A stretch of DNA of 64,000 nt, taken from NCBI GenBank assembly GCA_963667785.2, contig CAXXMU010000006.1, positions 896,001-960,000 on the forward strand, written 5' to 3'. Below are positions 44,303-59,229 of the stretch, piece after piece (positions within the stretch are counted from its first letter, which is position 1; each line of letters opens with the position of its first letter). Made by a program: the position numbers and the translations under genes. The DNA is from Alphaproteobacteria bacterium. GTDB lineage: Bacteria > Pseudomonadota > Alphaproteobacteria > UBA828. The notes under the pieces are model-generated. The model was not told where the DNA came from. It worked only from the letters and a program-made list of their open reading frames with translations, and made no database searches.

Positions 44303-44450
44303 TCCGCCGTTAGAACGTTTCGCTCTATCCCGGTATGTCTCCACAACACTCTGAAATAAGGCTTTTCATGAATGTGTCGCGTCTTGCACGGCCTCACGCC
44401 ATCCCGTACAATCCCGTCTAGTATAGGGAGTGGGAAAGAGGGTAATCGCC

Positions 44451-45686
44451 ATGGCGGACGGTCGAAAACCGAAGGGCAAGCACCCTGACAAGGCCCTGAG
44501 CCCGGCCTTCGTGCGCAAGGCCTCGAAGCCCGGACGCTACAACGACGGCAACGGGCTGTTCCTGAAGGTCGACCCCTCGGGCGCCAAGCGCTGGGGACAA
44601 AGGCTTGTCATCCACGGACGGCAGCGCACACTAGGACTTGGCGGGTGTGCGCTTGTGACTTTGGCCGAGGCGCGAGAGGCCGCACTGGCGAATCGCAAGA
44701 TCGCGCGGGCTGGCGGTGACCCGCTGGCGCAGCGTCGCCTCACGACCGATACCCCGACATTCGAGTCTGCAGCCGCGACCGTCATCGAGCTGCACCACCA
44801 CGGATGGCGCAACGAAAAGCACGCCGCCCAGTGGGAGGCCACGCTGCGCACCTACGTCCACCCGCACCTGGGCAAGCGATCCGTCGCAGACATCACGACC
44901 GCCGACGTCATGGCAGTCCTCATGCCGATCTGGAACGAGAAGCCCGAGACCGCCCGGCGCGTGCGCCAGCGCATCTCCACCGTGATGAAGTGGGCCGTGG
45001 CGCAGGGCTACCGGGGCGACAATCCTGCCGGCGACGCGATCGGCGCGGCTCTTCCCAAGCACAACGGCAAGACCAAGCGCCATCATCGAGCCCTGCCGCA
45101 CGGGGAGGTTGCGGCCGCCATCGAGGCGGTACGTGGCTCCAACGCCGGGAGGTCCGTAAAGCTCGCCTTCGAGTTTCTGGTGCTGACGGCCGCGCGCTCG
45201 GGCGAGGTCCGGCTCGCCACCTGGGACGAGATCGACAGGGACGCGAAGACCTGGACCGTACCGGCTTCACGCATGAAAGCCGGGCGCGAACATCGGGTGC
45301 CGCTGTCCGAACGCGCGCTCGCGATCCTCGATGAAGTGCAGGCGCTCTCCGACGGAAGCGGCCTCGTCTTTCCCGGCACCCGAACCGGCAAGCCGCTCTC
45401 GGACATGACGCTATCCAAGCTCATGCGCGACCTAGACCTCGACGCCGTGCCGCACGGCTTCAGATCGAGCTTCCGCGACTGGGCGGCCGAGTGCACTAAC
45501 GCCCCGCGCGACGTGATGGAGGCGGCTCTGGCCCACACGGTGCGTGACAAGGTCGAGGCCGCCTACAACCGCACCGACCTGTTCGAGCGTCGGCGCGCGC
45601 TCATGGATCAATGGGCCTCTTACCTCGACGGCGCCGCCGGCGCCGTCGTGACGATGGTGCGCCGTAAGGGACAGGCAAATGCGTGA
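44451..45686 (+). CDS. P4-like tyrosine integrase
   Basis: Arm-binding N-terminus DGNGLFL..SGAKRW; LTAARSGE, KAGREHRVPL, HGFRSSFRDW, LAH, AYNR. Confidence 0.95.
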   Translation: MADGRKPKGKHPDKALSPAFVRKASKPGRYNDGNGLFLKVDPSGAKRWGQRLVIHGRQRTLGLGGCALVTLAEAREAALANRKIARAGGDPLAQRRLTTDTPTFESAAATVIELHHHGWRNEKHAAQWEATLRTYVHPHLGKRSVADITTADVMAVLMPIWNEKPETARRVRQRISTVMKWAVAQGYRGDNPAGDAIGAALPKHNGKTKRHHRALPHGEVAAAIEAVRGSNAGRSVKLAFEFLVLTAARSGEVRLATWDEIDRDAKTWTVPASRMKAGREHRVPLSERALAILDEVQALSDGSGLVFPGTRTGKPLSDMTLSKLMRDLDLDAVPHGFRSSFRDWAAECTNAPRDVMEAALAHTVRDKVEAAYNRTDLFERRRALMDQWASYLDGAAGAVVTMVRRKGQANA

Positions 45687-46904: not shown

Positions 46905-47386
46905 GCTACAGGAGCGATGTGGACCGGCTCTTGTCCTGCGCTTTCGATCTGCTGCTGCTGGACGCTCTCCAGAGAGTCCCCTTCACCCCTCACGGCATGT
47001 GGACGCTGGACAGGTATCTCAACGGGACGGCGCTTAGACTGCGGAGCAAGCTGGCGTTCCGCATCAACTACGACAGGGCTCGGGCCAAGGCGGGTCGTTG
47101 AGAGGAAGCATTGGACCGATGCGGCGCCGCGCCGTACCGGGCAAGCGAAGGGCCGACGGGATGGATACACGTCAGGTATTTAGCCTGATCCCGATGGTGG
47201 GCAGGAGATGGCCTGAGTAGCCAGGAGATAGATCGTTTGGAGGGTGCCGTGCCGTCTTCTGATCGGGAGTGGCCTGGAGGGATTTCCTGTGCCTATTGTC
47301 CAAGTACCTATTGGGTACCTGGTGGACGAAGGCGAAGAAGAGTTGAGCAGATACAGGACGTGCTCTGTTCCAGAAAACTTCCTCTC

Positions 47387-48457
47387 TCAATCCTCTGTGT
47401 TTTGTGGGACTGGCGGCCGCTCTTGCTGGATCACATCGACACGATCCTTGAGTGCACCAAAATCACTAGTGGCATTCTCCAGCCGTTCTTCGAGGTTCTC
47501 TATTCGCTCTGTAATGCTTTGAGCATTCTCGGTCGCCTGCTGCCGATCCGCCTTCACCTGCTGATGAACCTCATTCGTCGTTGTTACCACCTGACTCACA
47601 AGGGAATAACCTTGAACAATAATCGTAGCAATTGCCGCAACCACCAATATCGCAGTTGCAACACCTATCCAAGTGTAAAGTTTTCTGAATCGGTCGGTAG
47701 TGTCGCGTGATTTTTCGACAGAATCTCTAGCTTCTTCTGCCCCTTTTCGAGCTGTTTCAGCAGCGTTTCTGGTTTCATCCAAGGCTCCATGGAAAGCACT
47801 CTGTACTCCGCCTTGGGCGGTTACTCCGGATTTCAGAAAGTACGCAAGCGGATCGTCAAGGTCTTTTGCGTTGGGAAATGCTTTCAGATTCTCAGGTCTC
47901 CCTACACCCTCCTTATTATGCTGCTTCCAATATTCGCTTTCGGATAGTTTTGTAAATTCCACCCAAATAATCCCATCTCCACCACAAATTTCATAATTGT
48001 TATTTGTGAGGTTATGCAGCGGAATCAGTAGACTTCCCGAAAATCCAGAATCTACTAGTGGACCAGTTCCCAATAACAGACCCTTATGTACATGACGAAT
48101 GTGTAAGTTGAAACGCGCAGCGATATACTCCGGAAGAAACAATTGTTCTGCCATCCACAAATAAGTTATAGAGTTGCGGTGTAGTATAGTGGGTTTATCT
48201 TTCACTATTTCTCTACAACGGGGCTTCAATTGTCCTTCATCAGTGACAATCCAGTCATAAAGCTTGCCTAGAAACCGCATCTCGTATGACGCAGGCTTGA
48301 GAAGATCAGAGTCGAACGTCGCTTTGTCGAGAAGACATCCAATGTCGACATATTTCTTGATGTCAGCAGAATTCAGCAGCGCCGGAGCTATGTCTTGTGA
48401 ATAGGGATCATAGGCGTAGTTTTTGTTTTTCCGCCATTGTTGATGTGTTCTAGTCAT
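47387..48457 (-). CDS. dCTP deaminase/dUTPase-fold protein with C-terminal TM helix and coiled coil
   Basis: LLNSADI, LKPASYEMR, PLVDSGFSG.L...LHNL; TM IGVATAILVVAAIATIIV; GAAGGA RBS. Confidence 0.8.
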   Translation of the reverse strand: MTRTHQQWRKNKNYAYDPYSQDIAPALLNSADIKKYVDIGCLLDKATFDSDLLKPASYEMRFLGKLYDWIVTDEGQLKPRCREIVKDKPTILHRNSITYLWMAEQLFLPEYIAARFNLHIRHVHKGLLLGTGPLVDSGFSGSLLIPLHNLTNNNYEICGGDGIIWVEFTKLSESEYWKQHNKEGVGRPENLKAFPNAKDLDDPLAYFLKSGVTAQGGVQSAFHGALDETRNAAETARKGAEEARDSVEKSRDTTDRFRKLYTWIGVATAILVVAAIATIIVQGYSLVSQVVTTTNEVHQQVKADRQQATENAQSITERIENLEERLENATSDFGALKDRVDVIQQERPPVPQNTED

Positions 48458-48490
48458 TCTGTAGTCCTTCCGACGACGATTATGCTAACA

Positions 48491-49555
48491 CTAATTCTGG
48501 TCGCTTTTCTGCGTGAACGGCTCGGTAAACCATCCGGATTGGGGACGGTCGATAATGCGGCTAGGGCCTGATCCTACATAGTTGATTTTCTGTCCCAATT
48601 GAGATTCGAGAAGCGAAACGCATTTGCCTGCTCGAGAGCTGATAGTAGCGGACTCGTGAATCGCATAGTCAAAATAGTCTACGTGATTGAGAAAAATCAT
48701 GTTTGGAGAGTTCGCCCGAAGTGCCCGGAGCACGACCTCGTCATGAAACTCAGCGACTCGGCGGGGTCGCCCAGTAACTGTAGTGAACTCTGTCAGGTTG
48801 ACGTTGGCTCCGCTGCTGCGTGTGATTGACTCCCATGTGGTCTCAAGAGGGAGAGGACCAGAATTTCCGTGCACACGGATGGGAAATGAGCGGATGACCA
48901 GGGCAACGCAGTCGACAAGACGTGGGCTCAGTCCCGCCTCGGACAAAGCTCCTGCCGCAGTTGTGTCGCGGCTAGTTGAATATGGGTAGTGCCCGCCGTG
49001 CAGAATTGATAGCCCGAAGCCTTGGGTGCCTTCAATCATGACACGTTGTCCGTCTTCGAGGGCGACGGCCAGGACGTCGTCTAGGTCAGGACGAACGAAT
49101 TCACGAAGGCACTCAATGGTACCGGCAAACGTGATCGACGATCTCCGCATCGCTCGTTGCGCCACGGCCCCACCCACTCCCTGTCCCGTGGATGCTATTC
49201 CTTCCAGCAAGCCTGCGGCGCGCTCATCTGCTCTCATCGAATCGTCCAGCACGACGGCCGACGGATGAATCAACAAGCGGTCTTTCGTGAGGCCAGTTTC
49301 TTCCATTTCGCGCATGAGAATGGTGGAATCGAGGTAGGCACCCGCAGGAACGATACCGATAACGTCGTCGGTCAGGATTGGTGTGGGAAGATGCTGAAGA
49401 ACAATGCGACGTCCGTCCTCGACCACAGTGTGACCCGAGTTCGGTCCTCCTACGCGAATCGCGTATCGCGGTCGTTGCAGGCGCGCCAGCCAGTGTGCGA
49501 CCTTGCCCTTGCCTTCCGAACCGTATTGGCCACCGACTACTATGGTTACCGGCAT
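48491..49555 (-). CDS. Adenylosuccinate synthetase-family protein, short PurZ/PurZ0-like variant
   Basis: GGQYGSEGKGK, GGPNSGHT, EGTQG, YPYSTSRD, PIRVHGNSGPL, TTVTGRPRRV, NHVDY. Confidence 0.88.
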   Translation of the reverse strand: MPVTIVVGGQYGSEGKGKVAHWLARLQRPRYAIRVGGPNSGHTVVEDGRRIVLQHLPTPILTDDVIGIVPAGAYLDSTILMREMEETGLTKDRLLIHPSAVVLDDSMRADERAAGLLEGIASTGQGVGGAVAQRAMRRSSITFAGTIECLREFVRPDLDDVLAVALEDGQRVMIEGTQGFGLSILHGGHYPYSTSRDTTAAGALSEAGLSPRLVDCVALVIRSFPIRVHGNSGPLPLETTWESITRSSGANVNLTEFTTVTGRPRRVAEFHDEVVLRALRANSPNMIFLNHVDYFDYAIHESATISSRAGKCVSLLESQLGQKINYVGSGPSRIIDRPQSGWFTEPFTQKSDQN

Positions 49556-51633
49556 GCTAAGCGTTCACCTATTGTGTTTCGCAGGATGGTCTCCAGGTCT
49601 TGAATGGTGCCGTTGTTGTCGAGTGTAGAGTCTGCTAAGCTCCGCATGACTTGCACGTTCTGCTCAACCGGGTGGGTGTCAGCACGACGGAAGGCGTCTT
49701 CCGATGCATCTGCCTCCGAAGTGTATCGTCGGGCACGAAGGGCCAAGGTCGCTTCGACGTGAAGGTGGAGGGCCGTGGTTCCCCATCTTTCGCGCAAGAA
49801 GGCTCTATCCTCAGGGTGTCTCAACCCGTCAACCACAACCCGTGAGTAGTGTTCGACGCACGCGGCCAGCTTGTTTTGGAGTTGTCGTTGTCCGAAGCGG
49901 CTGCGATGAGCTTCCTCGCCGAATTCCTGAAGGGCGTCCCTCGTGACCGGGGTTCCACGTGCGCGAAGCTCTCTCGCAATGATTTCGCTGAATCGGCAAT
50001 ATTTAAATCCCATGCATTCCAATAATCTCGCTGCAGTGGTCTTCCCTGCCGCGATCGGTCCGCTAAGGCCAACCGCGATGGTGGATCGGAGATCAGGCGA
50101 GCGACGGTTGACCGTTGGCACGACCAAGTAGTCCTCCTCTGTGCTTCCGAGTGCTTCCCAGTAGCCTGCGAGCATGAACTGACCAACCAGGGCGGATGTC
50201 GTTGCGTCGAGTTCGTCATGAGAAACCCTGAGTTCGGTGCCAAGGTCAGCGTAACCGAAGCGGCGCAAACCTTCGGTGAGGTGTTTCAGGCTTGTCTTTT
50301 TTCTAGGGATCCCCAAGATGTCCTGGGCAGCTCCTGGGTAACTCTCAATGACGGGGATGCCAAGTTTCCTCAATCGAGTCGCTAAGTCGACGCCACGCCT
50401 AGTTAATCTCTGCATACTGGGAAGCAGCGCTGGATAAACATGAACGCCCCTACTGCGAAGTATGCGTTCTGCTTCTCGAACGATTCCAAACTCGCTGCGG
50501 CCAGGATCGTCGTCAAATTCCGAGATTCGTCCCTCTGGAAGTGAGAGTGGGGAGTCGATTGAAACGAGAAAGGGTTCGGTGTCCAAGGTTCTCTTGATTA
50601 AGTCGGCATCTGATGCGACCACATTCATCGTCAGATGTTGGCCCGTCAACGCCGCCCATCCCGACTTGCGTTTCTCGCTGCCGGTCAAATCAAGCCCGAC
50701 GATGGTGATGTCATCCAACATTGGTGCGTTCTCACGCAGCTCTGAATAAGTGAGTCTCGGACCGACGGTACCAGTGTATGGACTGATGGATATGGCATTG
50801 CCGTCGCTGACGGCTTCAGCATGCGGGAAGTAGATGCTCGATCGGGGGAAGAGGCCGCTGTTTGAAGAGAGCATGACGGTGGGATGTACTACCCGGCGGA
50901 TGACCTCCTCGAAGAGAAATTTCATGCCTTCGATATCGGCATGATTGTAGCGTACCAGTTCGCGTAAGGCGTTCAGGTCGCCTTCCTTGTAGTCGAACCA
51001 TAAGGATACAGCTTCGGCTCCTGTGATTCCGCTGAGTGACCCTTCGCGGGTAAGTCCGATCTCTTGCTCGATTTTCTTCTGCCCTCCGGTCAAGCCGACC
51101 CGCTTGGCCAAGTAGCGAAGGTCGACATGACACAGGCCGGACCAATCCGTCTCGAAGTGCTTGGTGAGAAACGGGAGGTCGAACAAGGACCCGTTGAAGG
51201 TCACCACGATGGGATGCTCGTGTAGATCATGTTCGAGCTGAGCGACCTGGCTGGGGTCGACCAGTACCGTGTAAGTGCCGCCGACGGACCAGCCAACTAG
51301 GGTGACTTGATCGTAGTGAGGGCTCAGGCCCGTGCTCTCGATGTCGAGGAACACAGAGCTTTCGGGGAAGGTGGCGGCGATACGGTAGAACTCACGCTTG
51401 GGCAGTTTTCGCGCGAAGAACTTGATGTCACGAGTGGCGAGAGCCTCCTCGGAAGCCTCCACGGCGGACTGCAGCGCACTGGCGCTCTTGCGGTAGAGGT
51501 CGAGCTGGATCGGTGTGTGGCGGATGAGCTCCATCCAATCGGAGACGCCCTGGGCCCATAGCCTAGCCTCCGCCGCCGCGGAGATTCTCGGAAGGTGCAG
51601 AAATGTGCGACGGAGCAACTTTGCTTCGGGCAT
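49546..51633 (-). CDS. Fusion of YprB-like DEDD/RNase H-fold exonuclease, DUF429 nuclease-like domain and P-loop NMP kinase
   Basis: RRTFLHLP; FLDIESTG, TFNGSLFD, YNHADI; GLDLTG, IDSPLSLP, ESYP, HDELDA; GPIAAGKTT, DGLRHPED; alternative start 51756. Confidence 0.85.
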   Translation of the reverse strand: MPEAKLLRRTFLHLPRISAAAEARLWAQGVSDWMELIRHTPIQLDLYRKSASALQSAVEASEEALATRDIKFFARKLPKREFYRIAATFPESSVFLDIESTGLSPHYDQVTLVGWSVGGTYTVLVDPSQVAQLEHDLHEHPIVVTFNGSLFDLPFLTKHFETDWSGLCHVDLRYLAKRVGLTGGQKKIEQEIGLTREGSLSGITGAEAVSLWFDYKEGDLNALRELVRYNHADIEGMKFLFEEVIRRVVHPTVMLSSNSGLFPRSSIYFPHAEAVSDGNAISISPYTGTVGPRLTYSELRENAPMLDDITIVGLDLTGSEKRKSGWAALTGQHLTMNVVASDADLIKRTLDTEPFLVSIDSPLSLPEGRISEFDDDPGRSEFGIVREAERILRSRGVHVYPALLPSMQRLTRRGVDLATRLRKLGIPVIESYPGAAQDILGIPRKKTSLKHLTEGLRRFGYADLGTELRVSHDELDATTSALVGQFMLAGYWEALGSTEEDYLVVPTVNRRSPDLRSTIAVGLSGPIAAGKTTAARLLECMGFKYCRFSEIIARELRARGTPVTRDALQEFGEEAHRSRFGQRQLQNKLAACVEHYSRVVVDGLRHPEDRAFLRERWGTTALHLHVEATLALRARRYTSEADASEDAFRRADTHPVEQNVQVMRSLADSTLDNNGTIQDLETILRNTIGERLACR

Positions 51634-51993
51634 GGGCAGGCAGCGACCCGTCGTTGGGACCTCGGCACCGAGAACTTGTAGCACAAAGCGTGCCAGAGCA
51701 ATGTGGTGTGGTTCGGCGCCTAGTACTGTGGTAATTAGGTTAACGAATTCAGACACTTATCGTTCAAGCCAGTATCGACTTGGAGCAAGGACTGGCATGA
51801 GGCGGCCAAGGGAGCATGGCCGAGGATGAAATAACTGGAGAGTGTGGAAGAGCCGGAACGCGACCAGGAGGGCTAGAAACGTCTTGACGCTAGGACATCT
51901 GTCCTGTCGAACGGTGCATGATCGGACCGGACGTGAGCGGGAGAACTGGGCTAGGCTGTCATGGAGGTCTGAGCTGGGGATAGGGCGGTAGAT

Positions 51994-52008
51994 GTTGCTA
52001 TTTTGTTC
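51994..52008. promoter_or_regulatory. Candidate alphaproteobacterial LexA (SOS) box
   Basis: GTTG-ctatttt-GTTC, one mismatch to GTTC-N7-GTTC, in an AT-rich divergent intergenic region. Confidence 0.35.
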
Positions 52009-52221
52009 TATTTGAGTGAGAATGGTGTTCGATCGGGTGATTGAAGACCAAGCCCTTGGGGATAGTGGAGATGGGTCTAACAGGGCGGAAGTGATCGCGT
52101 TTCCCGCCACGGGTGCCGGCAGCAATGCCGATTCGCGCCGATCGTCTCGAGAAACGGCGGGCGGGGGTTCTCCGAGGAGAAGTAGAACGGTTCGCTCTAG
52201 AGTCGCAGCAGGTGGAAGCGG

Positions 52222-55161
52222 ATGACAGAGCCGATCCTGAATGAGGTGCTGGAGGCTACCGGCTATCTATCTGACGGTGAGCCGGCACACGGTGTGTACC
52301 TGAGTGGGGAAGCCGATGGGCTACCCAGATTCCGCGATTTTTCGCCCGATGCGCTGTGGCGGAGCGAGTCGGCACTGACCGTCTATTTCAAGTACGAAAG
52401 TGAAGATCCTTCCGAGGAACAGATCGCAGCGTGGCAGCGCGAAATATGGAATCACGGGTTCGCGCCGCTTCTGTGGGTGATTTCGCCCGAGAGCATTGGA
52501 GTCTACAACGGCTTCAGCCGGCCTCGAGAAGCTGGAAACGCGACGGTGCATCTGCTGGACACGTTCGGTCGGATCGAGGAGGAGCTCGACAGGCTCGATG
52601 CACTCGCCGGTCGGCTTGCAATGGAGACGGGTGAGTTCTGGCGCCGGGCGCGGTCTGTGCACCGTAGAACGTGCGTCGACCGGCAGCTCCTGTCGGATTT
52701 GGGCTCACTCGAGGGGGACCTCGAGTCGGAGGACCTAGATCGTCCCGGTGCGCAGGGTCTGATTGGACGTTCGATATTTGCCCAGTATCTGATCGACCGG
52801 GGAATCGTTACGCGCGAATTCTTGGAAAGCGAGTACGGTCACGGGACGCTCTCTGACATACTACGGGATCGCCAAGCTACGAAAGAACTATTCGACTGGC
52901 TTCGCGATACCTTCAACGGCGATATGTTTCCTGCGGAGAGTTCGGGCCTACCGGGAACGCGACATTTGCAGCGGGTCGCAGACTTCCTTGACGCTGTGGA
53001 TCCAGAGTCGGGACAGAGAACATTCTTTCCATATCAGTTCGACGTGATACCGGTCGAGTTGATCAGCTCGATCTACGAACAGTTCGCGAATTCCGATTCG
53101 GAGCCCAACGATGATGAGAGTGAGGAGGATGTCCATTATACGCGACTGTCGCTTGTTTCTCTGGTCTTGGACGAGATCGCCGACGGATTGGGTGGACGTG
53201 AAACAGTCCTTGACCTGAGCTGCGGGTCGGGGGTGTTTCTGGTGGAAGCCCTGCGAAGGCTGGTCGTGCACCGCTGCAACGGGAAAAGGCCAAACCGCAG
53301 GGTGATCCGTTCTGTGTTGTACGATCAAATCTATGGCGTCGACATTAGCGAGGCCGCGGTGCGCGTCGCCGCGTTCAGTCTCTACTTGGCCGCGCTGGAA
53401 CTCGACCCGAATCCGAGACCGCCGAAGGAGCTTAGGTTCAGGCCTCTCATCGGTAGAACTCTGTTTATCGCCGATTCTCGAAACGTAGAAGAAACGCCGG
53501 AGGGCAGGCGGGCTTTGACGGAAGGGGGCGAACGAAGGGCATTCGATGTCATCGTTGGGAACCCGCCGTGGAGCTACCGAGGCAAAAAGGCCCGGGCAGC
53601 TGCAAATTCGACAAGCGAATCGAGAGGCATCCGCGCGCCACGGGGCGTGAGCCTGGACTTCGTCTTGAGGGCCTTGGATTTTGCAACTCCTGATACGCGA
53701 TTGGGCATGGTCTTGAGCGGCGTCCAGTTCTTCAGCCGCAGCGGAACGGGAGCGGCCGTGTTGCGGGGCCTTTTGGAGGAGCTTTCTCCGGTAACATTGG
53801 TGAACCTGTCGTACCAGTCGAGCTGGCTGTTTCCGCGGGGTAGCCTGCCAGCAATGGTCCTCTTGGCGAGGCACCGGCCTTCCACACATGACGCAATAAC
53901 AGCTGTGCAGGTGCCATGGTCGCCGGCGGGAGAGCAAAGCCATACATTTGAGATTGCGCGCGAGGACATCGTAACGCTGCCGATCTCCGATTGGATGCGT
54001 AAGCCGGAGTGCCTGAAGACCGCCTTTTTCGGGCTGGGTCGTGATTTGGCGCTGTTGGACAGGCTGACTGATCGCTATCGGTCACTAGGAGAGCAACTAC
54101 AGGCTCTGGATACCGAGTTGCGCGGCGGCCTCAAGTATGGAGACCGCAGCCGCGATGCGCGCTTTCTTCAGGATCTTCCTGTGCTGACCAAGACGGACGT
54201 GCGGCCATTTGTCGTGTCGGACGGCCTGCATCAATTCGATAGCGATTGGGCAGAGCGTCCGCGGAGCCGTGAAACTTATCGGGCGCCGTTGGTCTTGGTC
54301 CGGGAATTTGTTCAGGCAGGGGGTCGTGCAGTGTGCGCGGTGGCTGAGCGGGATGTTGTGTTCACCGATGCCCTCTTGGGTGCGACGATCCCGCGCGAGA
54401 AAGTTGGGATAGCCTATTTGATCGCGTCAATACTAAGTTCCTCGCTCGCATCGTGGTTCTTCTTGATGACCGGTTCGACCTTCGGGCTGTCGATGCGACG
54501 TTTGCTACTCCGGGACATCGAACACCTCCCAATTCCGTCTCTGGACAGGGCGTGTCGGTCGACGGCTGGGCAGCGGCTGATCGAACTTGGTCGACGGCGC
54601 AGAACGGATCGGCTGGCCGGTCGGGACTGGCGAGAGATTGATGAGGCGGTATTTGATCTCTACGAACTGGACGAGGCGGATCGCATCGTCGCTCGTGATG
54701 GGCTGGTCCGGGCGGGATGGCAGTGGAAATCTGGCAGGGTTGCATCGGCAAGGGCGGCCGAAATGGATGCGGACATGCTTATCTATGCCCAAACGTTCCT
54801 GTCAGCGGTCGATGCTTGGCTTGCCGAGGGAAAGCGACGCCGCATGAGGGGCGAATTATTTGATCTTTCCGCGAGCGCGCCGTACCGCGTGGTTCGCTTT
54901 ATCCTGGAAGATGAGATCGGTCCATCGACGACGGGCCTGGTAAGGACGGAAGGCAGACTGCGGGATGTGCTCGACCGGATCGGAGAACGGTTGAATGTGC
55001 GCATCGGAGAGGCCTTGGTGGGTCAACGCGCGTTGCGGGTGTATGGCCCGAACGAGGTTGTAATCATTAAGCCGGCTGCTCGCCGACACTGGATGGGCGT
55101 GTCGGCGCTGGATGATGCCGATGCCGTAGTCAGCGACAGCCTTTCAGGACTTGCGGGGTGA
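52222..55161 (+). CDS. N6-adenine DNA methyltransferase with target-recognition region (Eco57I/type IIG-like)
   Basis: Motif X HYTR, motif I LDLSCGSGVFL, YGVDI, motif IV VIVGNPPW; 979 aa. Confidence 0.9.
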   Translation: MTEPILNEVLEATGYLSDGEPAHGVYLSGEADGLPRFRDFSPDALWRSESALTVYFKYESEDPSEEQIAAWQREIWNHGFAPLLWVISPESIGVYNGFSRPREAGNATVHLLDTFGRIEEELDRLDALAGRLAMETGEFWRRARSVHRRTCVDRQLLSDLGSLEGDLESEDLDRPGAQGLIGRSIFAQYLIDRGIVTREFLESEYGHGTLSDILRDRQATKELFDWLRDTFNGDMFPAESSGLPGTRHLQRVADFLDAVDPESGQRTFFPYQFDVIPVELISSIYEQFANSDSEPNDDESEEDVHYTRLSLVSLVLDEIADGLGGRETVLDLSCGSGVFLVEALRRLVVHRCNGKRPNRRVIRSVLYDQIYGVDISEAAVRVAAFSLYLAALELDPNPRPPKELRFRPLIGRTLFIADSRNVEETPEGRRALTEGGERRAFDVIVGNPPWSYRGKKARAAANSTSESRGIRAPRGVSLDFVLRALDFATPDTRLGMVLSGVQFFSRSGTGAAVLRGLLEELSPVTLVNLSYQSSWLFPRGSLPAMVLLARHRPSTHDAITAVQVPWSPAGEQSHTFEIAREDIVTLPISDWMRKPECLKTAFFGLGRDLALLDRLTDRYRSLGEQLQALDTELRGGLKYGDRSRDARFLQDLPVLTKTDVRPFVVSDGLHQFDSDWAERPRSRETYRAPLVLVREFVQAGGRAVCAVAERDVVFTDALLGATIPREKVGIAYLIASILSSSLASWFFLMTGSTFGLSMRRLLLRDIEHLPIPSLDRACRSTAGQRLIELGRRRRTDRLAGRDWREIDEAVFDLYELDEADRIVARDGLVRAGWQWKSGRVASARAAEMDADMLIYAQTFLSAVDAWLAEGKRRRMRGELFDLSASAPYRVVRFILEDEIGPSTTGLVRTEGRLRDVLDRIGERLNVRIGEALVGQRALRVYGPNEVVIIKPAARRHWMGVSALDDADAVVSDSLSGLAG

Positions 55162-55829
55162 GGCTGCCGATCGACGTTCCGGTTGTAGCCGGCCGGCCAT
55201 TTGTCACGCTCGCGCGCGAGATTGTGGCAGGGATTTTACGGATCGTTGAGGACGGTTGGGCTCGGACGCTAGCGTCGTCAGACGTGGGGGCAGACAACGG
55301 GGAAGTGGAGATCACCGAACGGCTGCGGGAAGGGATGCGAGAAGCGGCCAACGCGCGGAAGATCGAGATCAGACTGGTCGTGCTTCCGGGCACCGAGTCA
55401 CGGTCGCGCCCAGGCATCTTGAGGCCGGACGGGAGAACGGACATTCCGCTGTTGGTGATCGAAATCTTCTTGCGTTACGGAGAGCACGATCCGCACGCGG
55501 TGATTGAATGCAAGCGAGTGGCTGGTTCAAGGGCGGATCTGTGTCGTGCATATGTCGTAGAGGGCATCGACAGATTTCGATCTGGAAAATATAGCGGGAA
55601 TCACGCGACCGGATTCATGATTGGCTATCTGGTGGCTGGAGATGCTAACTCAGCAGTGTTGGGCATAAACCGGTACCTAGAGGGCAAGTCGCGAGTCGCA
55701 GATAGTCTGGATCGCTCAAGTCTGGTTGCGGCCTCCTGGGCGTGGCAAAGCGTTCATCTACGTAGCGGAGGATTGTCGATCGAGCTGCATCATGCATTTC
55801 TAGCGTTCGCCGCTTTGGCCCGTGGATAA
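55158..55829 (+). CDS. Putative PD-(D/E)xK nuclease-fold protein
   Basis: EVEIT...GRTDI...IECKRV; GTGA overlap with the MTase. Confidence 0.7.
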   Translation: MRLPIDVPVVAGRPFVTLAREIVAGILRIVEDGWARTLASSDVGADNGEVEITERLREGMREAANARKIEIRLVVLPGTESRSRPGILRPDGRTDIPLLVIEIFLRYGEHDPHAVIECKRVAGSRADLCRAYVVEGIDRFRSGKYSGNHATGFMIGYLVAGDANSAVLGINRYLEGKSRVADSLDRSSLVAASWAWQSVHLRSGGLSIELHHAFLAFAALARG

Positions 55830-56222: not shown

Positions 56223-57368
56223 TCACCCTGCGACCTCGGCGATACGGTTGGCGATGCGGTTGGCAGCCGACTTGACGGGATCATTTGCGAGGTGGGCATA
56301 GCGGGCGGTGGTCTGCACCTGGGTATGGCCAAGCAGCTTGCCGATCATGGGCAGGCCTTCGCCGACCAGGAGACCACCGCTGGCAAAGGAGTGGCGCAAA
56401 TCGTGGATACGGAGGTCGGCCAGCCCCGCCCGCGCTCGGATGCGCCGCCAAGGGTGTTGAAGGTCGGTCAGATGACTGTCCTCCTTGCGGCCGGCGATGA
56501 CCCACGGATTGTCACCCCGTCTCTCGATGCCACGCAGCACGGCGATGGCCGGGTCGCCGAGATGAACGACCTTGGCGCCCGTTTTCGTTTCCGGCAGCTT
56601 GAGTTCCCCGACCTCCAGATCGACATGCTCCCAGCGCAGCTTCTGAATCTCCGAAAGCCGGCAGCCGGTCAGCATGAGGAGCCGGATCGCTGCGATCGCC
56701 GCGGGAGTTTCTGAGCGCTCTTGTTCGATCTCCCGAAGGGCGGATCCAAGACGTTGATACTCGTCGTCAGATAGAAAGCGCTCTCGTTTCTCTTCCTTGA
56801 AGCGCTTCACATGGCGACAGGGGTTGGACCCATCGGGGCGGAGCTCCCAGAGCTCGGCCAAGTTGAACATCTTGGACAATACTCCGAGCGTGCGGTTTGC
56901 CTGGTAGGGCGTCTCGCGCAGGTCGTGATGGAGTGCGGCGATATTGCTCCGCTGGACGTCCGGGACACGCAGCTTGCCGATGCGCGGGTTGATGAAGAGT
57001 TCCACCGATCGGCGGTACTCCGCGGCCGTGCTCTGCTTGCAGTGGTTGGGGACATATTCCTTGAGGAAGCGTTCGCCCAACGTCCGCATGGTCGGTGCGT
57101 TGGATCTGCGTCCCTTGGGGTTCTTGCCGGCTCTCGCATCGGTGATGATCTCGGCGGCGCGGACGCGGGCATAGGCTGCGGAGACAGCGTGAGCCGGGCC
57201 GATGGTCATCTTGATGATCCGACCCTGGTAGCGGGTCTTGACGATGAACACCTTTCGACCGGAGGGATGGACGCGCACACCGAATCCCTTGAGGTCGTCG
57301 TCCCATACGACGCGCTCGCGCTCGTGGGGCTTGAGAGCATCGACGGTTCGCTTGGTGATCTTCGGCAT
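56223..57368 (-). CDS. Tyrosine integrase with arm-binding domain
   Basis: MPKITKR..WDDDLKGFGVRV; LTGCRLSE, KTG, HDLRHSFAS, LGH, ARY. Confidence 0.95.
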   Translation of the reverse strand: MPKITKRTVDALKPHERERVVWDDDLKGFGVRVHPSGRKVFIVKTRYQGRIIKMTIGPAHAVSAAYARVRAAEIITDARAGKNPKGRRSNAPTMRTLGERFLKEYVPNHCKQSTAAEYRRSVELFINPRIGKLRVPDVQRSNIAALHHDLRETPYQANRTLGVLSKMFNLAELWELRPDGSNPCRHVKRFKEEKRERFLSDDEYQRLGSALREIEQERSETPAAIAAIRLLMLTGCRLSEIQKLRWEHVDLEVGELKLPETKTGAKVVHLGDPAIAVLRGIERRGDNPWVIAGRKEDSHLTDLQHPWRRIRARAGLADLRIHDLRHSFASGGLLVGEGLPMIGKLLGHTQVQTTARYAHLANDPVKSAANRIANRIAEVAG

Positions 57369-57533
57369 TCCGGTCTTCCCTTGGCCCGAAATCGCAGGTA
57401 CTCTATAGGTACCTGGGAAACCCAACTCGGACGCAAGCATAGCTGCGTGCGGACAACGAGGGAAGAGAAATAATATAGGGAAATCAACGTACTGATAAGT
57501 CTGTGCATCAGGTGACAACGAAGTCATGCCAAA

Positions 57534-57578
57534 CTCATAACCTGAAGGTCGAAGGTTCAAGTCCTGCCCCCGCAACCA
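57534..57578 (+). pseudogene. 3' half of tRNA-Met(CAT) (att-site remnant)
   Basis: ctcataacctgaaggtcgaaggttcaagtcctgcccccgcaacca: anticodon loop, T arm, CCA; no 5' half upstream. Confidence 0.88.
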
Positions 57579-59216
57579 CCGAGACCGACATCTCCGGCAT
57601 GGGGATGTCGGTCTTCGTGTTTTCGCGCCCGTTTCCAGCCCATTCGAGGATCGCACCAAGATCGCCGTGCAGCACGGCGTCCATCTCGGCCCATTTCTCG
57701 CTCGGGGTGAGCACGATGCGCTCGATCAGGCCGCGGATGGCCGCCGCCGCCGCGTCGCGGTCCTCCGGATGGTCCAGCGCTTCGGCAAGCCGCGCCACCT
57801 TGCGCCGGTAGACGTCCGCGATGTTGGGGTGGATGTCCGGGAGGTCGGCGGGCGCCGCTGACAGTCTCTCGTTCAGCTCGTCCTGGCGCGCCTCCAGCTC
57901 GCGCAGCCGGTCCACCATACCCCGGACGTAGCCGCCGTCCTCGATGACGGCGATCATGGCGGCGATCTTCGTCTCGACCTGGGCCAACTCCTTCCGGTCG
58001 CTCGCGCCCGAGGCGCGGCGCTCCCGGTTGATCCGGTTGGTCTCCTCGGCCCAGGCCCGCATCGCCTCGGCGGCGGCCTCCGGCGCCATCAACCGGTCCT
58101 TCGGCCCGGACAGCACGCGCTCTTCGATCACGGAGCGGCGGATGCCGCGGCCGTTCGAGCATGTGCCGGTCATGATGTGGTTGGAGCAGCCGTAGCGGTC
58201 CTGGCCGCGCATGGAATAGGGGCCGCCGCAGACGCCGCATTCGAGCAGGCCCGAGAGCAGGTGGCGCGGCCGGTGGGCGCCGTTCAGCCGGTAGGCCCGC
58301 ACGCTTTGCGTGGCCTCGATGACGGTGGCGTATTGCACCGTGATCTCGCCCTGGCGGTCCTTCACCGCCTTCCAGAGATCGTCGTCGACGATGCGGAGTT
58401 CGGGCACATCCGCGACGATCCACTCCTCCGGCGGGTTGATCCGCGAGACCCGCTTGCCGGTCTCCGGGTTCTTGACGTAGCGCAGCCGGTTCCACACCAG
58501 CCGGCCGATATAGAGCTCGTTGTTGATGAGCCCCGCGCCCCGCTTCGCGTGGCCCCGGATGGTGGTATCCATCCAGAGCTTGCCCGAGGGGCCGGGGACG
58601 CCTTCCCCGTTCAGCCGCCGCGCGATCGCGCGCGGGCTGGCGCCGTCGGCAAACTCCCGGAACACCCGGCGCACGATCTCGGCCTCGGCTTCGTTGACCG
58701 TGCGCCCGCCGCGGACCGGATCGCCCGCGCCGTCGAACGACTTCACCACGTCGTAGCCGTAGCAGAGACCGCCGCCCGACTTGCGGCCTCGACCCGGCCG
58801 CGAAGCCCCCGGTGCGTCTTCGCCGCGAGGTCCTTCAGGAACAGCGCGTTCATCGTGCCCTTGAGCCCGACATGGAGCTCGCTGATCTCGCCCTCGGCCA
58901 GCGTCACCACCGTCACCCCGGCGAAGCGCAGGTGCTTGTAGAGCGTCGCCACGTCCGCCTGGTCGCGGCTCACCCGGTCGAGGGCCTCGGCGAGCAGGAT
59001 CTCGAACATCCCCCGCCGCGCGTCCTCCAGCAGCGCCTGGATGCCGGGACGCAGGATCATGCTGTCGCCCGAGATGGCGGAGTCCTTGTAGGCACCCGCG
59101 ATCTTCCAGCCCTCGCGCCCCGCGCGCTCGCGGCAGACCCGGAACTGGTCCTCGATCGACGCCGCCCGCTGCTGGTCCGAGGAGTAGCGGGCGTAGAGCG
59201 CGCAGCGCAGGGTCAT
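57535..59216 (-). pseudogene. Large serine recombinase with a single frameshift near 58784
   Basis: N-part YARYSS...EALDRVSR; C-part recombinase and Zn ribbon (CGVCG...C..H..TC); restoring one G gives EAGKSGGGLCYGYD. Confidence 0.88.
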
Positions 59217-59229
59217 GGCTTCCGGTCTC

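What the first reader, a model, noticed from the sequence alone, without database searches (positions are those of the whole stretch)
47387..51633. Candidate new anti-phage system: exonuclease-kinase fusion, PurZ-like synthetase and membrane-anchored dUTPase-fold protein
Seen: three co-oriented, tightly packed genes (10-nt overlap, 33-nt gap), lower in GC than the core. They sit inside an integrase-bounded island next to an MTase/nuclease pair, and no phage structural or replication genes are in the window. Known: PurZ converts dGMP to a succinylated precursor of dZMP (2-aminoadenine) in Z-genome phages. Some defence systems use modified nucleotides as signals (dITP in Kongming), and TM effectors are common in CBASS and Pycsar. 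Inference: the nuclease releases (d)NMPs from invading nucleic acid, the synthetase (with or without host PurB) modifies them and the fused kinase phosphorylates the product. The product then either activates the dUTPase-fold TM receptor (abortive infection) or poisons phage replication. I do not recognise this trio as a named system.
Basis: partly seen in the sequence, partly recalled or inferred. Interest (0 to 1): 0.92.

Follow-up and report, generated by a model that had tools for sequence, protein, structure and literature searches.

The report
Bacterial PurZ-like nucleotide-conversion operon
Three tightly packed genes on a foreign island encode a double nuclease fused to a nucleotide kinase, a bacterial cousin of the phage enzyme that makes the unusual DNA base 2-aminoadenine, and a membrane-anchored dUTPase-fold protein; the set recurs across many bacterial phyla, has no name, and is a strong untested candidate for a new antiviral system.

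Summary
Three minus-strand genes (47387-51633; 10-nt overlap, 33-nt gap; GC 0.49-0.59 against about 0.72 in the flanks) encode three proteins:

- A DEDD exonuclease + DUF429 (RNase H-fold) + dNMP-kinase-like fusion.
- A short adenylosuccinate-synthetase paralogue that carries the PurZ hallmark serine in place of PurA Asp13.
- A DCD/dUTPase-fold protein that lacks the deaminase glutamate and has a C-terminal transmembrane helix and coiled coil.

The genome has a separate canonical PurA and Dcd. None of 60 relatives has the full fusion gene.

The set is conserved. Of 46 loci with enough flank, 41 have the PurZ-like gene, 36 the DCD-TM gene, 34 the kinase and 18 an extra deoxynucleoside kinase. 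Natural fusions occur (kinase-PurZ-like; PurZ-like-DCD-TM). In some loci an AAA ATPase replaces DCD-TM, or PHP replaces the exonuclease.

No close relatives were found in viral contigs. There was no system-level PADLOC match, and nine literature searches found no description. Restriction-modification genes and integrases recur beside it.

Best reading (about 0.4): a mobile, membrane-tethered operon that converts DNA-derived guanine deoxynucleotides into N6-succino-2-amino- or 2-aminoadenine nucleotides, acting against phages. Whether the product is a poison or a signal is unresolved, and function is untested.

The parts
49546..51633 (-). Gene 1: a 695-aa fusion of an N-terminal helical region, a DEDD 3'-5' exonuclease, a DUF429 RNase H-fold domain and a dNMP-kinase-like P-loop domain. 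The ORF is open up to a GTG at 51756, but the ATG at 51633 fits the homologues.
50905..51354 (-). Exonuclease domain (PF13482, residues 135-284 of the 736-aa frame). The DEDD residues are invariant in 48 aligned homologues: D97, E99, D152 and D233 in 695-aa numbering.
   Evidence: E 1.2e-27; invariant columns; weak PDB hits to diDNase at 2.8e-4 and NanoRNase C at 0.64; PHROG polymerase exonuclease families.
50116..50712 (-). DUF429-type RNase H-fold domain (residues 349-547 of the 736-aa frame). Invariant acidic and His residues are D315, D360, D374, D376, E389, H472, D473, E474 and D476 in 695-aa numbering.
   Evidence: PF04250 precomputed on 4 of 120 homologues; two are named DUF429 by their source; (PDC-S44, 8.4e-6); passages of PMC3985635 and PMC4429107.
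49546..50094 (-). Nucleoside-monophosphate-kinase-like P-loop domain (residues 555-736 of the 736-aa frame), with the Walker A motif GPIAAGKTT.
   Evidence: CoaE, 28.4 bits; kinase part of the PADLOC dCTPase model, 1.8e-8; PHROG dNMP kinase, 3.2e-11; Foldseek: adenylate-kinase-related protein 3lw7 at E 4.5e-7 and TMt 0.81, then CoaE, AK and UMP/CMP kinases.
48491..49555 (-). Gene 2: a 354-aa short-form adenylosuccinate-synthetase paralogue of the Ser-type (PurZ-like). The motif is GSEGKGK.
47387..48457 (-). Gene 3: a 356-aa protein with a DCD/dUTPase-fold domain (about residues 20-225), a helical linker, one TM helix and a C-terminal coiled coil.
47615..47671 (-). Predicted transmembrane helix of gene 3 (residues 263-281).
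   Evidence: Kyte-Doolittle mean 2.6 over 19 residues. A TM is present in 116 of 116 homologues of 290 aa or more and in 35 of 36 in the loci.
52222..55161 (+). Context: a divergently oriented 979-aa type IIG restriction-modification-like N6-adenine methyltransferase.
   Evidence: Eco57I, N6_Mtase, MmeI_Mtase; PADLOC REase_MTase_IIG, 3.6e-45.
55158..55829 (+). Context: a 223-aa ORF that overlaps the methyltransferase stop by 4 nt. It matched no family.
   Evidence: 0 families each.
44430..45686 (+). Context: a tyrosine integrase (Arm-DNA-bind_3, Phage_int_M, Phage_integrase) at the left edge of the low-GC stretch.
56223..57659 (-). Context: a second tyrosine integrase at the right edge.

Best explanation
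This is a self-contained, horizontally mobile operon for deoxypurine nucleotide conversion. It most likely serves in conflict with phages.

**Proposed steps**
1. The two nuclease domains of gene 1 degrade DNA or RNA-DNA hybrid ends to 5'-mononucleotides. These domains are a DEDD exonuclease and a DUF429 RNase H-fold domain. In about 40% of relatives a deoxynucleoside kinase adds a second route to dNMPs.
2. The Ser-type PurA paralogue condenses a guanine (deoxy)nucleotide with aspartate, as phage PurZ/PurZ0 do. The product is N6-succino-2-amino-(d)AMP. Host PurB could convert this to dZMP.
3. The fused dNMP-kinase-like domain phosphorylates that product towards the di- or triphosphate.
4. The DCD/dUTPase-fold protein is not a deaminase. 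It binds or hydrolyses a dNTP at the membrane, either feeding or gating the pathway, and it tethers the pathway to the membrane.

The net effect is that aminoadenine-type or succinylated deoxynucleotides appear, and G/A pools are disturbed while an invader replicates. This sabotages phage DNA synthesis and is probably costly to the cell.

**Shown here:** gene order, domains, conserved catalytic residues, co-occurrence, natural fusions and accessory status.

**Inferred:** substrates, products, the trigger and the antiviral role.

**My sub-odds**
- The operon is a functional unit: 0.95.
- Gene 2 acts on a 2-amino purine nucleotide: 0.65.
- The chemistry is at the deoxy level: 0.6.
- The role is in conflict or defence: 0.55.
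For: **Conservation**
- The gene 1 + gene 2 pair is present in 11 of 11 genome loci. The DCD-TM gene is present in 8 of the 10 that reach past gene 2.
- Across 91 loci, 72 carry an EXO+DUF429 gene. Of the 46 of these with at least 2.3 kb downstream, 41 have the PurZ-like gene, 36 DCD-TM, 34 the kinase and 18 dNK.
- The loci span Gamma- and Alphaproteobacteria, Binatia, Acidobacteriota, Planctomycetota and Gemmatimonadota.

**Natural fusions**
- Kinase-PurZ-like: P0193, P0196, P0199, P0222, P0252, P0246.
- PurZ-like-DCD-TM: P0128.
- In some loci the kinase is a separate gene or is fused to the PurZ-like gene.

**PurZ-likeness of gene 2**
- Ser replaces PurA Asp13 in P0002, in 118 of 120 close homologues (2 lack the motif), and in 120 of 127 motif-bearing representatives.
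- PMC12884076 (passages) reports Asp13 in 99% of PurA and Ser in all 147 phage PurZ.
- PMC8342488 (passages) places that Ser next to the 2-amino group of dGMP.
- All Ser-type rows separate from Asp-type PurA (SH-aLRT 97).
- PHROG 'PurZ' family match, 1.6e-68.
- Like PurZ0, P0002 has a 2-residue insertion after the conserved Val, which P. horikoshii PurA lacks.
- A canonical PurA (565 bits) lies elsewhere in the genome.

**Deoxy-level chemistry**
- dNK (PF01712) is the fourth gene in some loci.
- The kinase matches the PHROG dNMP-kinase family and NMP-kinase folds.
- The third protein has the DCD/dUTPase fold.

**Catalytic residues are invariant** in the exonuclease, DUF429 and Walker A motifs and in the synthetase.

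**Gene 3 is not a deaminase.** The Dcd catalytic Glu is an invariant Pro, and the RSS motif is replaced.

**Accessory and mobile**
- The full fusion gene was found in 0 of 60 relatives; one same-order genome (G039) has only a partial exonuclease-domain match.
- Low GC.
- Integrases and a type IIG RM gene flank it.

**Neighbours elsewhere**
- N6-methyltransferases in 6 loci and integrases in 5.
- Among 148 immediate neighbours in 39 loci: type I methyltransferase (5 members), specificity subunit (4), type I REase (2), type IIG (2), capP (3), mad2/mad5 (5/3).

**Not phage-borne**
- No close relative of any of the three proteins was found in IMG/VR pattern scans.
- Phage PurZ/PurZ0 are at most 36% identical.

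**Toxicity precedent.** The phage Z-cluster is toxic in E. coli and puts Z into cellular DNA (PMC8342488).
Against: - There is no experimental datum of any kind.
- No PADLOC system matches, and P0002 hits no PADLOC model.
- In the 11 genome loci most neighbours are housekeeping genes such as GlyRS, PolA, GyrB and UvrD. Defence models each hit single proteins.
- I have no background rate for the neighbour counts, so enrichment is not demonstrated.
- Gene 2 fails the curated PurZ HMM cut-off (218 against 300 bits). It also lies outside the phage PurZ and PurZ0 clades. Its substrate could therefore differ: GMP, dIMP or another purine.
- No DatZ-like dATPase and no PurB are encoded in the operon.
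- The poison model explains neither the conserved membrane anchor nor the AAA ATPase that replaces DCD-TM in 10 loci.
- No sensor or trigger was identified, and a constitutive nuclease would be harmful.
- Five loci with ample flank carry the EXO+DUF429 gene without any partner.
Confidence: 0.4

Rival explanations
1. Signal-and-effector abortive infection. The nuclease, synthetase and kinase make an unusual nucleotide from invader-derived dNMPs. This nucleotide is an alarm signal. It binds the DCD-fold trimer, whose TM helices then damage the membrane. In variant operons the signal activates an AAA ATPase effector instead.
For: - The TM anchor is conserved (116 of 116; 35 of 36), but the number of helices varies from 1 to 3 and the tail is variable. 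This pattern resembles membrane effectors.
- The deaminase catalytic residues are lost while the nucleotide-binding core and a lid-like GGVQSAF motif are kept.
- DCD-TM is replaced by a TM-less AAA ATPase in 10 loci, as expected of swappable effectors.
- That ATPase weakly matches PADLOC IetA (2.9e-15).
- Precedents recalled from memory, not tested here: Kongming (dITP signal) and TM effectors in CBASS and Pycsar.
Against: - The natural fusion of the PurZ-like enzyme to DCD-TM (P0128) suits consecutive or complexed enzymes better than a producer and its diffusible-signal receptor.
- A three- to four-enzyme route is long for a signal.
- The DCD core is very strongly conserved (16 invariant and more than 60 near-invariant columns), as in enzymes.
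- No known signal-binding domain is present.
Confidence: 0.2
2. Self-DNA marking. The operon makes a modified purine deoxynucleotide (Z or an N6-succinyl derivative) that is incorporated into the host's or the island's own DNA. The mark would protect against restriction or work together with the neighbouring RM-type genes.
For: - N6-adenine methyltransferase / type IIG genes recur beside the operon: in the window and in 6 loci.
- Cellular polymerases accept dZTP (PMC8342488).
Against: - No polymerase, transglycosylase or dATP-excluding enzyme is conserved with the operon.
- RM neighbours occur in only a minority of loci.
- The Z-cluster is toxic to E. coli.
- Nuclease domains and a membrane anchor are not expected for a marking pathway.
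Confidence: 0.12
3. Nutritional salvage. This would be a membrane-associated pathway that recycles DNA breakdown products or deoxynucleosides and interconverts deoxypurines, with no role in conflict.
For: - All activities centre on dNMPs: nuclease, dNK, dNMP kinase and PurA-like.
- Many neighbours in genome loci are housekeeping genes.
- Many loci come from soil, sediment or sponge-type metagenomes, judging by contig names and labels only, which I did not verify.
Against: - The distribution is patchy: the full gene is in 0 of 60 relatives.
- The composition is foreign.
- Integrases and RM genes lie beside it.
- The modules are shuffled between loci.
- The Ser-type active site is known only from Z-base synthesis.
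- The genome already has canonical PurA and Dcd.
Confidence: 0.1
4. Remnant or cargo of a Z-genome phage or satellite. This would be a phage Z-base cassette stranded in the chromosome.
For: - Its nearest characterised enzyme family is phage PurZ/PurZ0.
- PurZ0 phages pair PurZ0 with Dut-like enzymes (L015 and L017 annotations).
- Integrases flank the island.
Against: - No close relatives of any of the three proteins were found in 2.9 million viral contigs by pattern scans.
- Identity to phage PurZ/PurZ0 is at most 36%, and the protein falls in a separate clade.
- The 14-kb island has no match to phage records.
- No phage structural or replication families were seen among the island ORFs tested.
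- Similarity of the DCD-TM family to the phage Dut-like proteins is limited to one motif (hhalign probability 15% and 9%).
Confidence: 0.03

Closest known systems
Phage Z-genome cluster (PurZ or PurZ0 with MazZ/DatZ or DutZ/DmtZ)
   Same: - It has a short PurA paralogue with Ser at the Asp13 position.
- It is paired with a dNTP-pyrophosphatase-superfamily protein. DutZ is a dUTPase-like enzyme in PurZ0 phages.
- It depends on kinases to reach the triphosphate.
   Different: - This operon is cellular and chromosomal, not found in viral contigs.
- Identity is at most 36%, in a separate clade, and below the curated PurZ cut-off.
- It brings its own dNMP-kinase-like domain, two nuclease domains and often a dNK.
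- The dUTPase-superfamily partner is of the DCD type and membrane-anchored.
- There is no DatZ, MazZ or DpoZ.
Archaeal-type short adenylosuccinate synthetase (PurA; P. horikoshii 2d7u/5k7x; NCBIfam PRK04293)
   Same: - It gives the best PDB sequence match (E 1.2e-49 over the full length) and the best NCBIfam hit (253 bits).
- It has the same short architecture.
- The Asn/His and TVTGRxRR motifs are conserved.
   Different: - Asp13 is Ser.
- The score is below the equivalog cut-off of 368.
- It is a second copy beside a canonical PurA.
- It is an accessory gene embedded in the operon.
Nucleotide-pool defence enzymes (anti-phage dCTP deaminase with an N-terminal kinase domain; dGTPase)
   Same: - The kinase domain of gene 1 matches the kinase part of the PADLOC dCTPase model (1.8e-8).
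- The theme of attacking dNTP pools is shared. The mechanism of those systems is recalled from the literature; bioRxiv 2021.04.26.441389 was seen in a search listing only.
   Different: - There is no zinc cytidine-deaminase domain.
- The DCD-fold protein here lacks deaminase residues.
- A synthetase and nucleases are present.
Kongming (dITP-signalling defence) and prokaryotic viperins (chain-terminator nucleotides)
   Same: The concept is shared: immunity through a modified (deoxy)nucleotide made from the normal pools. Details of both systems are recalled, not tested here.
   Different: None of their signature proteins is present: no adenosine deaminase, SIR2-type effector or radical-SAM enzyme. 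The enzyme families are different.
MS_RHII-RSD of Mycobacterium smegmatis (DUF429 fused to a RelA/SpoT synthetase) and other DUF429 fusions
   Same: A DUF429 RNase H-fold domain is fused to a nucleotide-metabolism domain. DUF429 of MSMEG5849 has RNase HII activity (PMC4429107 passages). Fusions to NUDIX and RelA/SpoT are noted in PMC3985635 and PMC3153485.
   Different: Here the partners are a DEDD exonuclease and an NMP-type kinase, within an operon that also has the PurZ-like and DCD-TM genes.
PUA-Calcineurin-HAD system and its linked 'modified base' operons (PMC12871103)
   Same: That preprint notes in passing an operon encoding adenylosuccinate synthetase in a conflict-system context, and it describes DNA-degradation-derived dNMPs as immune cues (passages).
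   Different: No PUA, calcineurin or HAD domain is present here. That paper's figures and supplements, which might show the gene content of its operon, could not be seen.

Membership tests
PurZ / PurZ0 (succino-amino-deoxyadenylate synthase) | Ser in place of the PurA catalytic Asp13 in the G-x-E-G-K-G loop | tested here: met
   P0002 has GSEGKGK. S13 is invariant in 52 aligned family members. The rule comes from PMC12884076 passages.
PurZ / PurZ0 (succino-amino-deoxyadenylate synthase) | Passes the curated NCBIfam PurZ model NF038379 (cut-off 300 bits) | tested here: not met
   218.3 bits.
PurZ / PurZ0 (succino-amino-deoxyadenylate synthase) | Falls inside the phage PurZ or PurZ0 clade | tested here: not met
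   The system clade (16 rows, SH-aLRT 97) is separate from the Vibrio-phage PurZ group and from the Archimedes/Hiyaa PurZ0 group. The backbone of the tree is weak.
PurZ / PurZ0 (succino-amino-deoxyadenylate synthase) | Insertion after the conserved Val that disfavours the ribose 2'-OH (deoxy selectivity) | tested here: inconclusive
   P0002 and PurZ0 (7vf6) share a 2-residue insertion (IRVhGNSG / IRVaGNSG) relative to P. horikoshii PurA (TRV--GAGP). S-2L PurZ has a 9-residue insertion. No structure-based test was done.
PurZ / PurZ0 (succino-amino-deoxyadenylate synthase) | Uses dGMP + Asp to make dSMP | not testable with these tools
   This needs an enzyme assay.
Housekeeping adenylosuccinate synthetase (PurA) | Asp13 general base; passes the equivalog cut-offs; is the genome's purine-pathway copy | tested here: not met
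   The residue is Ser, not Asp. Scores are TIGR00184 180.7 against 395.55 and PRK04293 253.1 against 368. A canonical PurA scoring 565 bits lies on another contig.
dCTP deaminase (Dcd / DCD-DUT) | DCD/dUTPase beta-barrel fold | tested here: met
   The AF2 model has pLDDT 82.7. Foldseek matches M. tuberculosis DCD-DUT at E 1.4e-10, as well as archaeal dUTPases and E. coli Dcd.
dCTP deaminase (Dcd / DCD-DUT) | Catalytic Glu in the ...LE(L/F)xN strand, and the R-S-S phosphate/deamination motif | tested here: not met
   An alignment to the genome's own Dcd shows ILELMN against LIPLHN, with an invariant Pro146, and GRSSYAR against LHIRHVH. The identity of the catalytic Glu is recalled from E. coli and M. 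jannaschii work.
dCTP deaminase (Dcd / DCD-DUT) | Passes TIGR02274 (92.8 bits) or Pfam DCD (27 bits) | tested here: not met
   P0001 scores 36.5 bits and 26.6 bits. Homologues in other loci pass Pfam DCD at 28.5-47 bits, and P0128 at 54 bits.
DEDD 3'-5' exonuclease (PF13482 RNase_H_2) | Family HMM above cut-off and the four acidic catalytic residues | tested here: met
   97.4 bits against 22. D97, E99, D152 and D233 are invariant in 48 sequences.
DUF429 (PF04250, RNase H-like clade D) | Family HMM match and conserved acidic residues on the first and fourth strands | tested here: inconclusive
   P0003 itself gives no Pfam PF04250 hit at E up to 0.1. PF04250 is precomputed on 4 of 120 close homologues, and two are named DUF429 by their source. 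The acidic residues are invariant. Foldseek rows were all taken by the kinase domain.
Nucleoside-monophosphate kinase superfamily (AK / CoaE / dNMP kinase) | Walker A P-loop, NMP-kinase fold, lid arginines | tested here: met
   GxxxxGKT is conserved at 90% or more; the two Binatia homologues lack the domain. Foldseek gives 3lw7 at TMt 0.81, then AK, CoaE and UMP/CMP kinases. PHROG dNMP kinase scores 3.2e-11. The substrate is not testable here.
Any named system in PADLOC-DB v2.0.0 | Signature proteins of a described or candidate system | tested here: not met
   P0002 hits 0 families. P0001 has only weak coiled-coil hits. P0003 has partial hits to the dCTPase kinase region, PDC-S44 and DEDDh. 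DefenseFinder and later PADLOC releases were not available.

The most novel reading that the evidence does not exclude
Bacteria themselves make 2-aminoadenine (Z) or N6-succino-aminoadenine deoxynucleotides as an immune weapon. A membrane-tethered nuclease-kinase-PurZ-like machine turns DNA breakdown products into a non-canonical purine that corrupts phage replication. The phage PurZ/PurZ0 enzymes that build Z-genomes were then captured from this large cellular radiation of Ser-type PurA paralogues, rather than directly from archaeal PurA.
Probability: 0.2. Interest if true: 0.92.

Novelty: categorically new. Interest (0 to 1): 0.82.

Why it matters
Until now PurZ-type chemistry (dGMP to the Z-base precursor) has been known only from phages that rewrite their own genomes. 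This work finds a large family of Ser-type PurA paralogues encoded in cells and spread by horizontal transfer. They sit in a fixed partnership with nucleases, nucleotide kinases and a membrane-anchored dUTPase-fold protein.

If the operon is antiviral, it would add a new mechanistic class of immunity: synthesis of a non-canonical purine nucleotide from DNA debris. It would also give a cellular origin for the phage Z pathway.

Each step can be tested directly with simple enzyme assays, LC-MS and phage challenge. Even if the role is not defence, the operon defines an undescribed deoxypurine pathway and gives a context for the uncharacterised DUF429 and DCD-TM families.

Tried and rejected

**Complex prediction.** The predicted complex of P0002 with the DCD domain of P0001 returned no verdict (score 0.00). 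It counts neither for nor against binding.

**Expression.** No RNA holder was listed for the operon. Read laying was therefore not used, and nothing can be said about expression.

**Signals and island ends.**
- Promoter and terminator scans of 46900-52300 were at the chance level (4 against 2.7 expected; 3 against 4.4).
- No att-like direct repeats bound the island, and the window holds no tRNA gene. The island ends are therefore undefined.

**Comparisons that gave little.**
- Profile comparison of the DCD-TM family with the Dut-like proteins of PurZ0 phages showed only motif-level similarity (probability 15% and 9%). I treat them as analogues within one superfamily.
- Foldseek on the whole gene 1 model returned kinase hits only (49 of the 50 listed ranks), so it gave no fold evidence for the two nuclease domains.
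- The ESM Atlas gave only 'hypothetical protein' clusters carrying DCD.
- The plasmid search with P0003 found 12 partial matches and none covering 80%.
- A stand-alone DUF429 beside a diadenylate cyclase on a Dyadobacter plasmid did not recur in four metagenome loci, so I dropped it as a lead.

**A rough proxy only.** Shared 'longest contig' lengths between the three top-120 homologue lists were 39, 53 and 25 pairwise and 18 for all three. This points to co-residence but is no more than a proxy.

**Limits of the neighbour counts.** The family counts on neighbours list only the 25 commonest families and have no background rate. I do not claim statistical enrichment.

**Literature.** Searches for a named system were. 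Supplements were closed. Figure S1 of PMC12871103 and Supplementary Fig. S8 of PMC12884076 may bear on the claim that the set is undescribed.

**Rejected readings.**
- Gene 3 as a dCTP deaminase: the catalytic residues are absent.
- Gene 2 as the housekeeping PurA.
- A prophage origin.

Full report
**Observation**

The stretch 47387-51633 holds three co-oriented minus-strand ORFs.

- Gene 1 is open from 51756. Homologues are typically 695 aa, and tblastn alignments in three loci begin at residue 42.
- Gene 1 and gene 2 overlap by 10 nt. Gene 2 and gene 3 are 33 nt apart.
- GC is 0.49-0.59 over 47-52 kb, against 0.71-0.76 in the polyketide synthase region to the left.
- The low-GC stretch runs to about 56 kb. 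Tyrosine integrases lie at 44430-45686 and 56223-57659.
- Divergent from gene 1 lies a 979-aa type IIG RM-like methyltransferase, followed by a 223-aa ORF that matched no family.
- No att-like repeat or tRNA gene marks the ends of the island.

**Gene 1: nuclease-kinase fusion**

- Pfam finds the PF13482 DEDD exonuclease (E 1.2e-27) and a CoaE-like P-loop domain.
PF04250 is precomputed on 4 of 120 close homologues, and two are named DUF429 by their source.
- DUF429 is an RNase H-fold family (PMC3985635, passages). One member has RNase HII activity (PMC4429107, passages), and the domain is elsewhere fused to NUDIX or RelA/SpoT domains.
- In 48 aligned homologues the DEDD residues, a set of acidic and His residues in DUF429, and the Walker A motif are invariant or nearly so.
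- The AF2 model is confident (pLDDT 87.7).
- Its kinase domain resembles an AMP-bound adenylate-kinase-related protein (TMt 0.81), adenylate and UMP/CMP kinases and CoaE.
- It also matches the PHROG dNMP-kinase family (3.2e-11) and the kinase part of the PADLOC anti-phage dCTPase model (1.8e-8).
- It therefore looks like a small-molecule nucleotide kinase, not a polynucleotide kinase.

**Gene 2: PurZ-like synthetase**

- It is a short adenylosuccinate-synthetase paralogue (PF00709, E 4e-43).
- Its best solved relative is P. horikoshii PurA, followed by PurZ0 of phage Archimedes (7vf6).
- It fails every curated cut-off: PRK04293 253 against 368, PurZ 218 against 300, TIGR00184 181 against 396.
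- It is not the housekeeping enzyme. A canonical PurA scoring 565 bits lies on another contig.
- The P-loop reads GSEGKGK. The catalytic Asp13 of PurA is Ser.
- According to PMC12884076 (passages), Asp13 is kept in 99% of PurA, and Ser replaces it in all 147 phage PurZ.
- PMC8342488 (passages) places that Ser beside the 2-amino group of dGMP.
- Ser is present in 118 of the 120 closest homologues; the other 2 lack the motif.
- Of the 150 best 50%-identity representatives, 22 lack the motif and one motif-bearing row was a close homologue counted above. Of the remaining 127, 120 have Ser, 4 Gly, 2 Asp and 1 Leu.
- P0002 also shares with PurZ0 a two-residue insertion after the conserved Val, which P. 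horikoshii PurA lacks. In S-2L PurZ a longer insertion at this place is linked to deoxy selectivity.
- The other catalytic motifs are invariant in the family.
- In trees (FastTree with 131 rows; IQ-TREE mixture model with 49 rows) all Ser-type rows separate from Asp-type PurA (97).
- The system's enzymes form their own clade (97), apart from the Vibrio-phage PurZ group, the PurZ0 group and a clade of kinase-fused forms. The backbone is poorly resolved.
- Phage proteins are at most 36% identical.
- Gene 2 therefore works like a PurZ by its active-site signature, but it is not a member of the described phage families.

**Gene 3: membrane-anchored DCD-fold protein**

- Sequence evidence for the DCD fold: DCD 26.6 bits, TIGR02274 E 3.7e-9.
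- Structure evidence: Foldseek E 1.4e-10 to M. tuberculosis DCD-DUT, plus archaeal dUTPases and E. coli Dcd.
- Aligned to the genome's own Dcd, the strand that carries the deaminase Glu reads LIPLHN instead of ILELMN. The Pro is invariant in 58 family members. The RSS motif is also replaced. It is not a dCTP deaminase.
- The core and a GGVQSAF segment, which aligns with the C-terminal lid of Dcd, are strongly conserved. This fits nucleotide binding or hydrolysis.
- After a helical linker comes one TM helix (263-281) and a variable coiled coil.
- A TM segment is present in 116 of 116 homologues of 290 aa or more and in 35 of 36 in the loci. The number of helices varies from one to three.

**Is it a system?**

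- Close relatives of gene 2 in species-representative genomes (11 loci, six phylum-level groups) always have gene 1 directly upstream. Eight of the ten loci that reach past gene 2 have the DCD-TM gene.
- A metagenome scan found at least 440 relatives of gene 1, of which 80 loci were kept.
- Of the 46 with at least 2.3 kb downstream, 41 have the PurZ-like gene, 36 DCD-TM, 34 the kinase and 18 a deoxynucleoside kinase (PF01712).
- Five have none of these partners: L059, L066, L075, L077 and L078.
- The modules shuffle between loci:
  - the kinase is fused to gene 1, free-standing, or fused to the N-terminus of the PurZ-like enzyme;
  - one representative fuses PurZ-like, DCD, TM and coiled coil in a single protein (P0128);
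  - a PHP domain replaces the DEDD exonuclease in three loci;
  - a TM-less AAA ATPase of about 700 aa is present in 10 loci, none of which has DCD-TM.
- The window's copy lacks the dNK gene.

**Mobility and context**

- None of 60 relatives has the full fusion gene, including 20 of the same genus. One same-order genome (G039) has only a partial exonuclease-domain match.
- No close relative of any of the three proteins was found in IMG/VR by pattern scans. The island has no megablast match to phage records.
- Neighbours differ from locus to locus.
- In the 11 genome loci they are mostly housekeeping genes, and defence models each hit single proteins.
- Across the larger set, N6-methyltransferase / type IIG genes recur in 6 loci and integrases in 5.
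- Among 148 immediate neighbours in 39 loci, PADLOC finds type I methyltransferases (5 members), specificity subunits (4), type I REase (2), type IIG (2), capP (3) and MADS components (5 and 3).
- I have no background rate, so this is suggestive and not a demonstrated enrichment.

**Mechanism**

Every enzymatic part points at deoxynucleoside monophosphates:

- nucleases that release them;
- dNK that makes them;
- a PurZ-like enzyme that should aminate C6 of a 2-amino purine nucleotide through a succinyl intermediate;
- an NMP-type kinase;
- a dNTP-binding DCD-fold protein.

The simplest pathway runs from DNA or deoxynucleoside to dGMP, then to N6-succino-2-amino-dAMP, then (through host PurB) to dZMP, and then to the di- and triphosphate. 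The phage version of this chemistry is toxic to E. coli and places Z in cellular DNA, and cellular polymerases accept it (PMC8342488).

I therefore favour an antiviral operon that makes a nucleotide poison or corrupts the pools (about 0.4).

The AAA-for-DCD-TM swap and the variable TM region support it. The PurZ-like-DCD-TM fusion and the enzyme-like conservation of the DCD core argue against it.

Lesser rivals are self-DNA marking (0.12), salvage (0.10) and a phage remnant (0.03).

The trigger, the role of the membrane anchor and the function of the AAA variant remain unexplained.

**Comparison with what is known**

- The nearest known system is the phage Z-cluster.
- The nearest concepts are nucleotide-pool defences, viperins and Kongming. 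My knowledge of the last two is recalled.
- PADLOC v2 has no matching system.
- Nine full-text searches found no description.
- The closest mention is one sentence in PMC12871103 about a modified-base operon encoding adenylosuccinate synthetase. Its figures and supplements could not be seen.

**Verdict**

This is a real, conserved, widely transferred and apparently undescribed multi-gene system built around a cellular PurZ-like enzyme. Its function is untested. Interest is high.

Noticed in passing
window 33616-43977 (-): A 3453-aa modular type I polyketide synthase ORF (KS-AT-DH-MT-ER-KR-ACP-KS-AT by eye in the translation) ends about 450 nt from the left integrase. The island is inserted right beside a biosynthetic gene.
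   Followed up: no
window 57535-58749 and 58743-59246 (-): A large serine recombinase appears split into two overlapping ORFs. The Resolvase N-terminal domain is in one, and the Recombinase + zinc-ribbon domains are in the other. This is probably a frameshifted or disrupted gene next to the second integrase.
   Followed up: partly
window 60501-63155 (-) and 63094-63909 (-): An 884-aa Ser/Thr protein kinase has a kinase domain that matches PADLOC mad6 (1.1e-19) and PD-T4-6 models. It is followed by a 271-aa ORF with no family. Both lie in a second low-GC stretch (0.57-0.60). This may be another defence-type locus.
   Followed up: partly
window 52222-55829 (+): A type IIG RM-like methyltransferase (979 aa) is translationally coupled (4-nt overlap) to a 223-aa protein with no family match in Pfam, PADLOC or PHROGs.
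   Followed up: partly
L008, L040, L041, L059, L070, L096, L097, L100, L101, L103: Ten loci carry a TM-less AAA ATPase of about 580-875 aa (PF00004; weak PADLOC IetA match, 2.9e-15), and none of them has the DCD-TM gene. L059 has the ATPase but none of the other partner genes (no PurZ-like gene). Three of the ten loci also carry a DUF7002 gene.
   Followed up: partly
L096:8165-11227, and likewise L101 and L103: In a proteins of about 960-1020 aa, a PHP phosphoesterase domain stands in place of the DEDD exonuclease, fused to DUF429 and the kinase. A dNK gene lies upstream in two of the three loci (L101, L103); a PurZ-like gene lies on the other strand in all three, seen as a kinase-PurZ-like fusion only in L096.
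   Followed up: partly
P0193, P0196, P0199, P0222, P0246, P0252 and about 20 further representatives: There is a large clade of Ser-type PurA paralogues with an N-terminal P-loop kinase fused on, giving proteins of 480-570 aa. Their genomic contexts were not examined.
   Followed up: partly
L030:496-1889, L034:988-2382, L008:3931-5411 (all -): A pair of genes recurs upstream of the operon on the opposite strand in three loci: a protein of about 240 aa with no family, plus DUF5343 (PADLOC candidate PDC-M34A, 7.2e-8). The 240-aa protein also sits between the PurZ-like and DCD-TM genes in L045-L047.
   Followed up: partly
L104:6992-7612 (Dyadobacter chenhuakuii plasmid NZ_CP099631.1): A stand-alone 206-aa DUF429-type protein is 51% identical to the DUF429 domain of gene 1. 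It lies just downstream of a gene annotated diadenylate cyclase. The pairing was not seen in the metagenome loci checked.
   Followed up: partly
G000:C5:189365-190402 (L108/L111): The window's genome holds a further 384-aa frame with two weak DCD-like matches (4.8e-9 and 3.0e-5). It may be a tandem-DCD protein.
   Followed up: no
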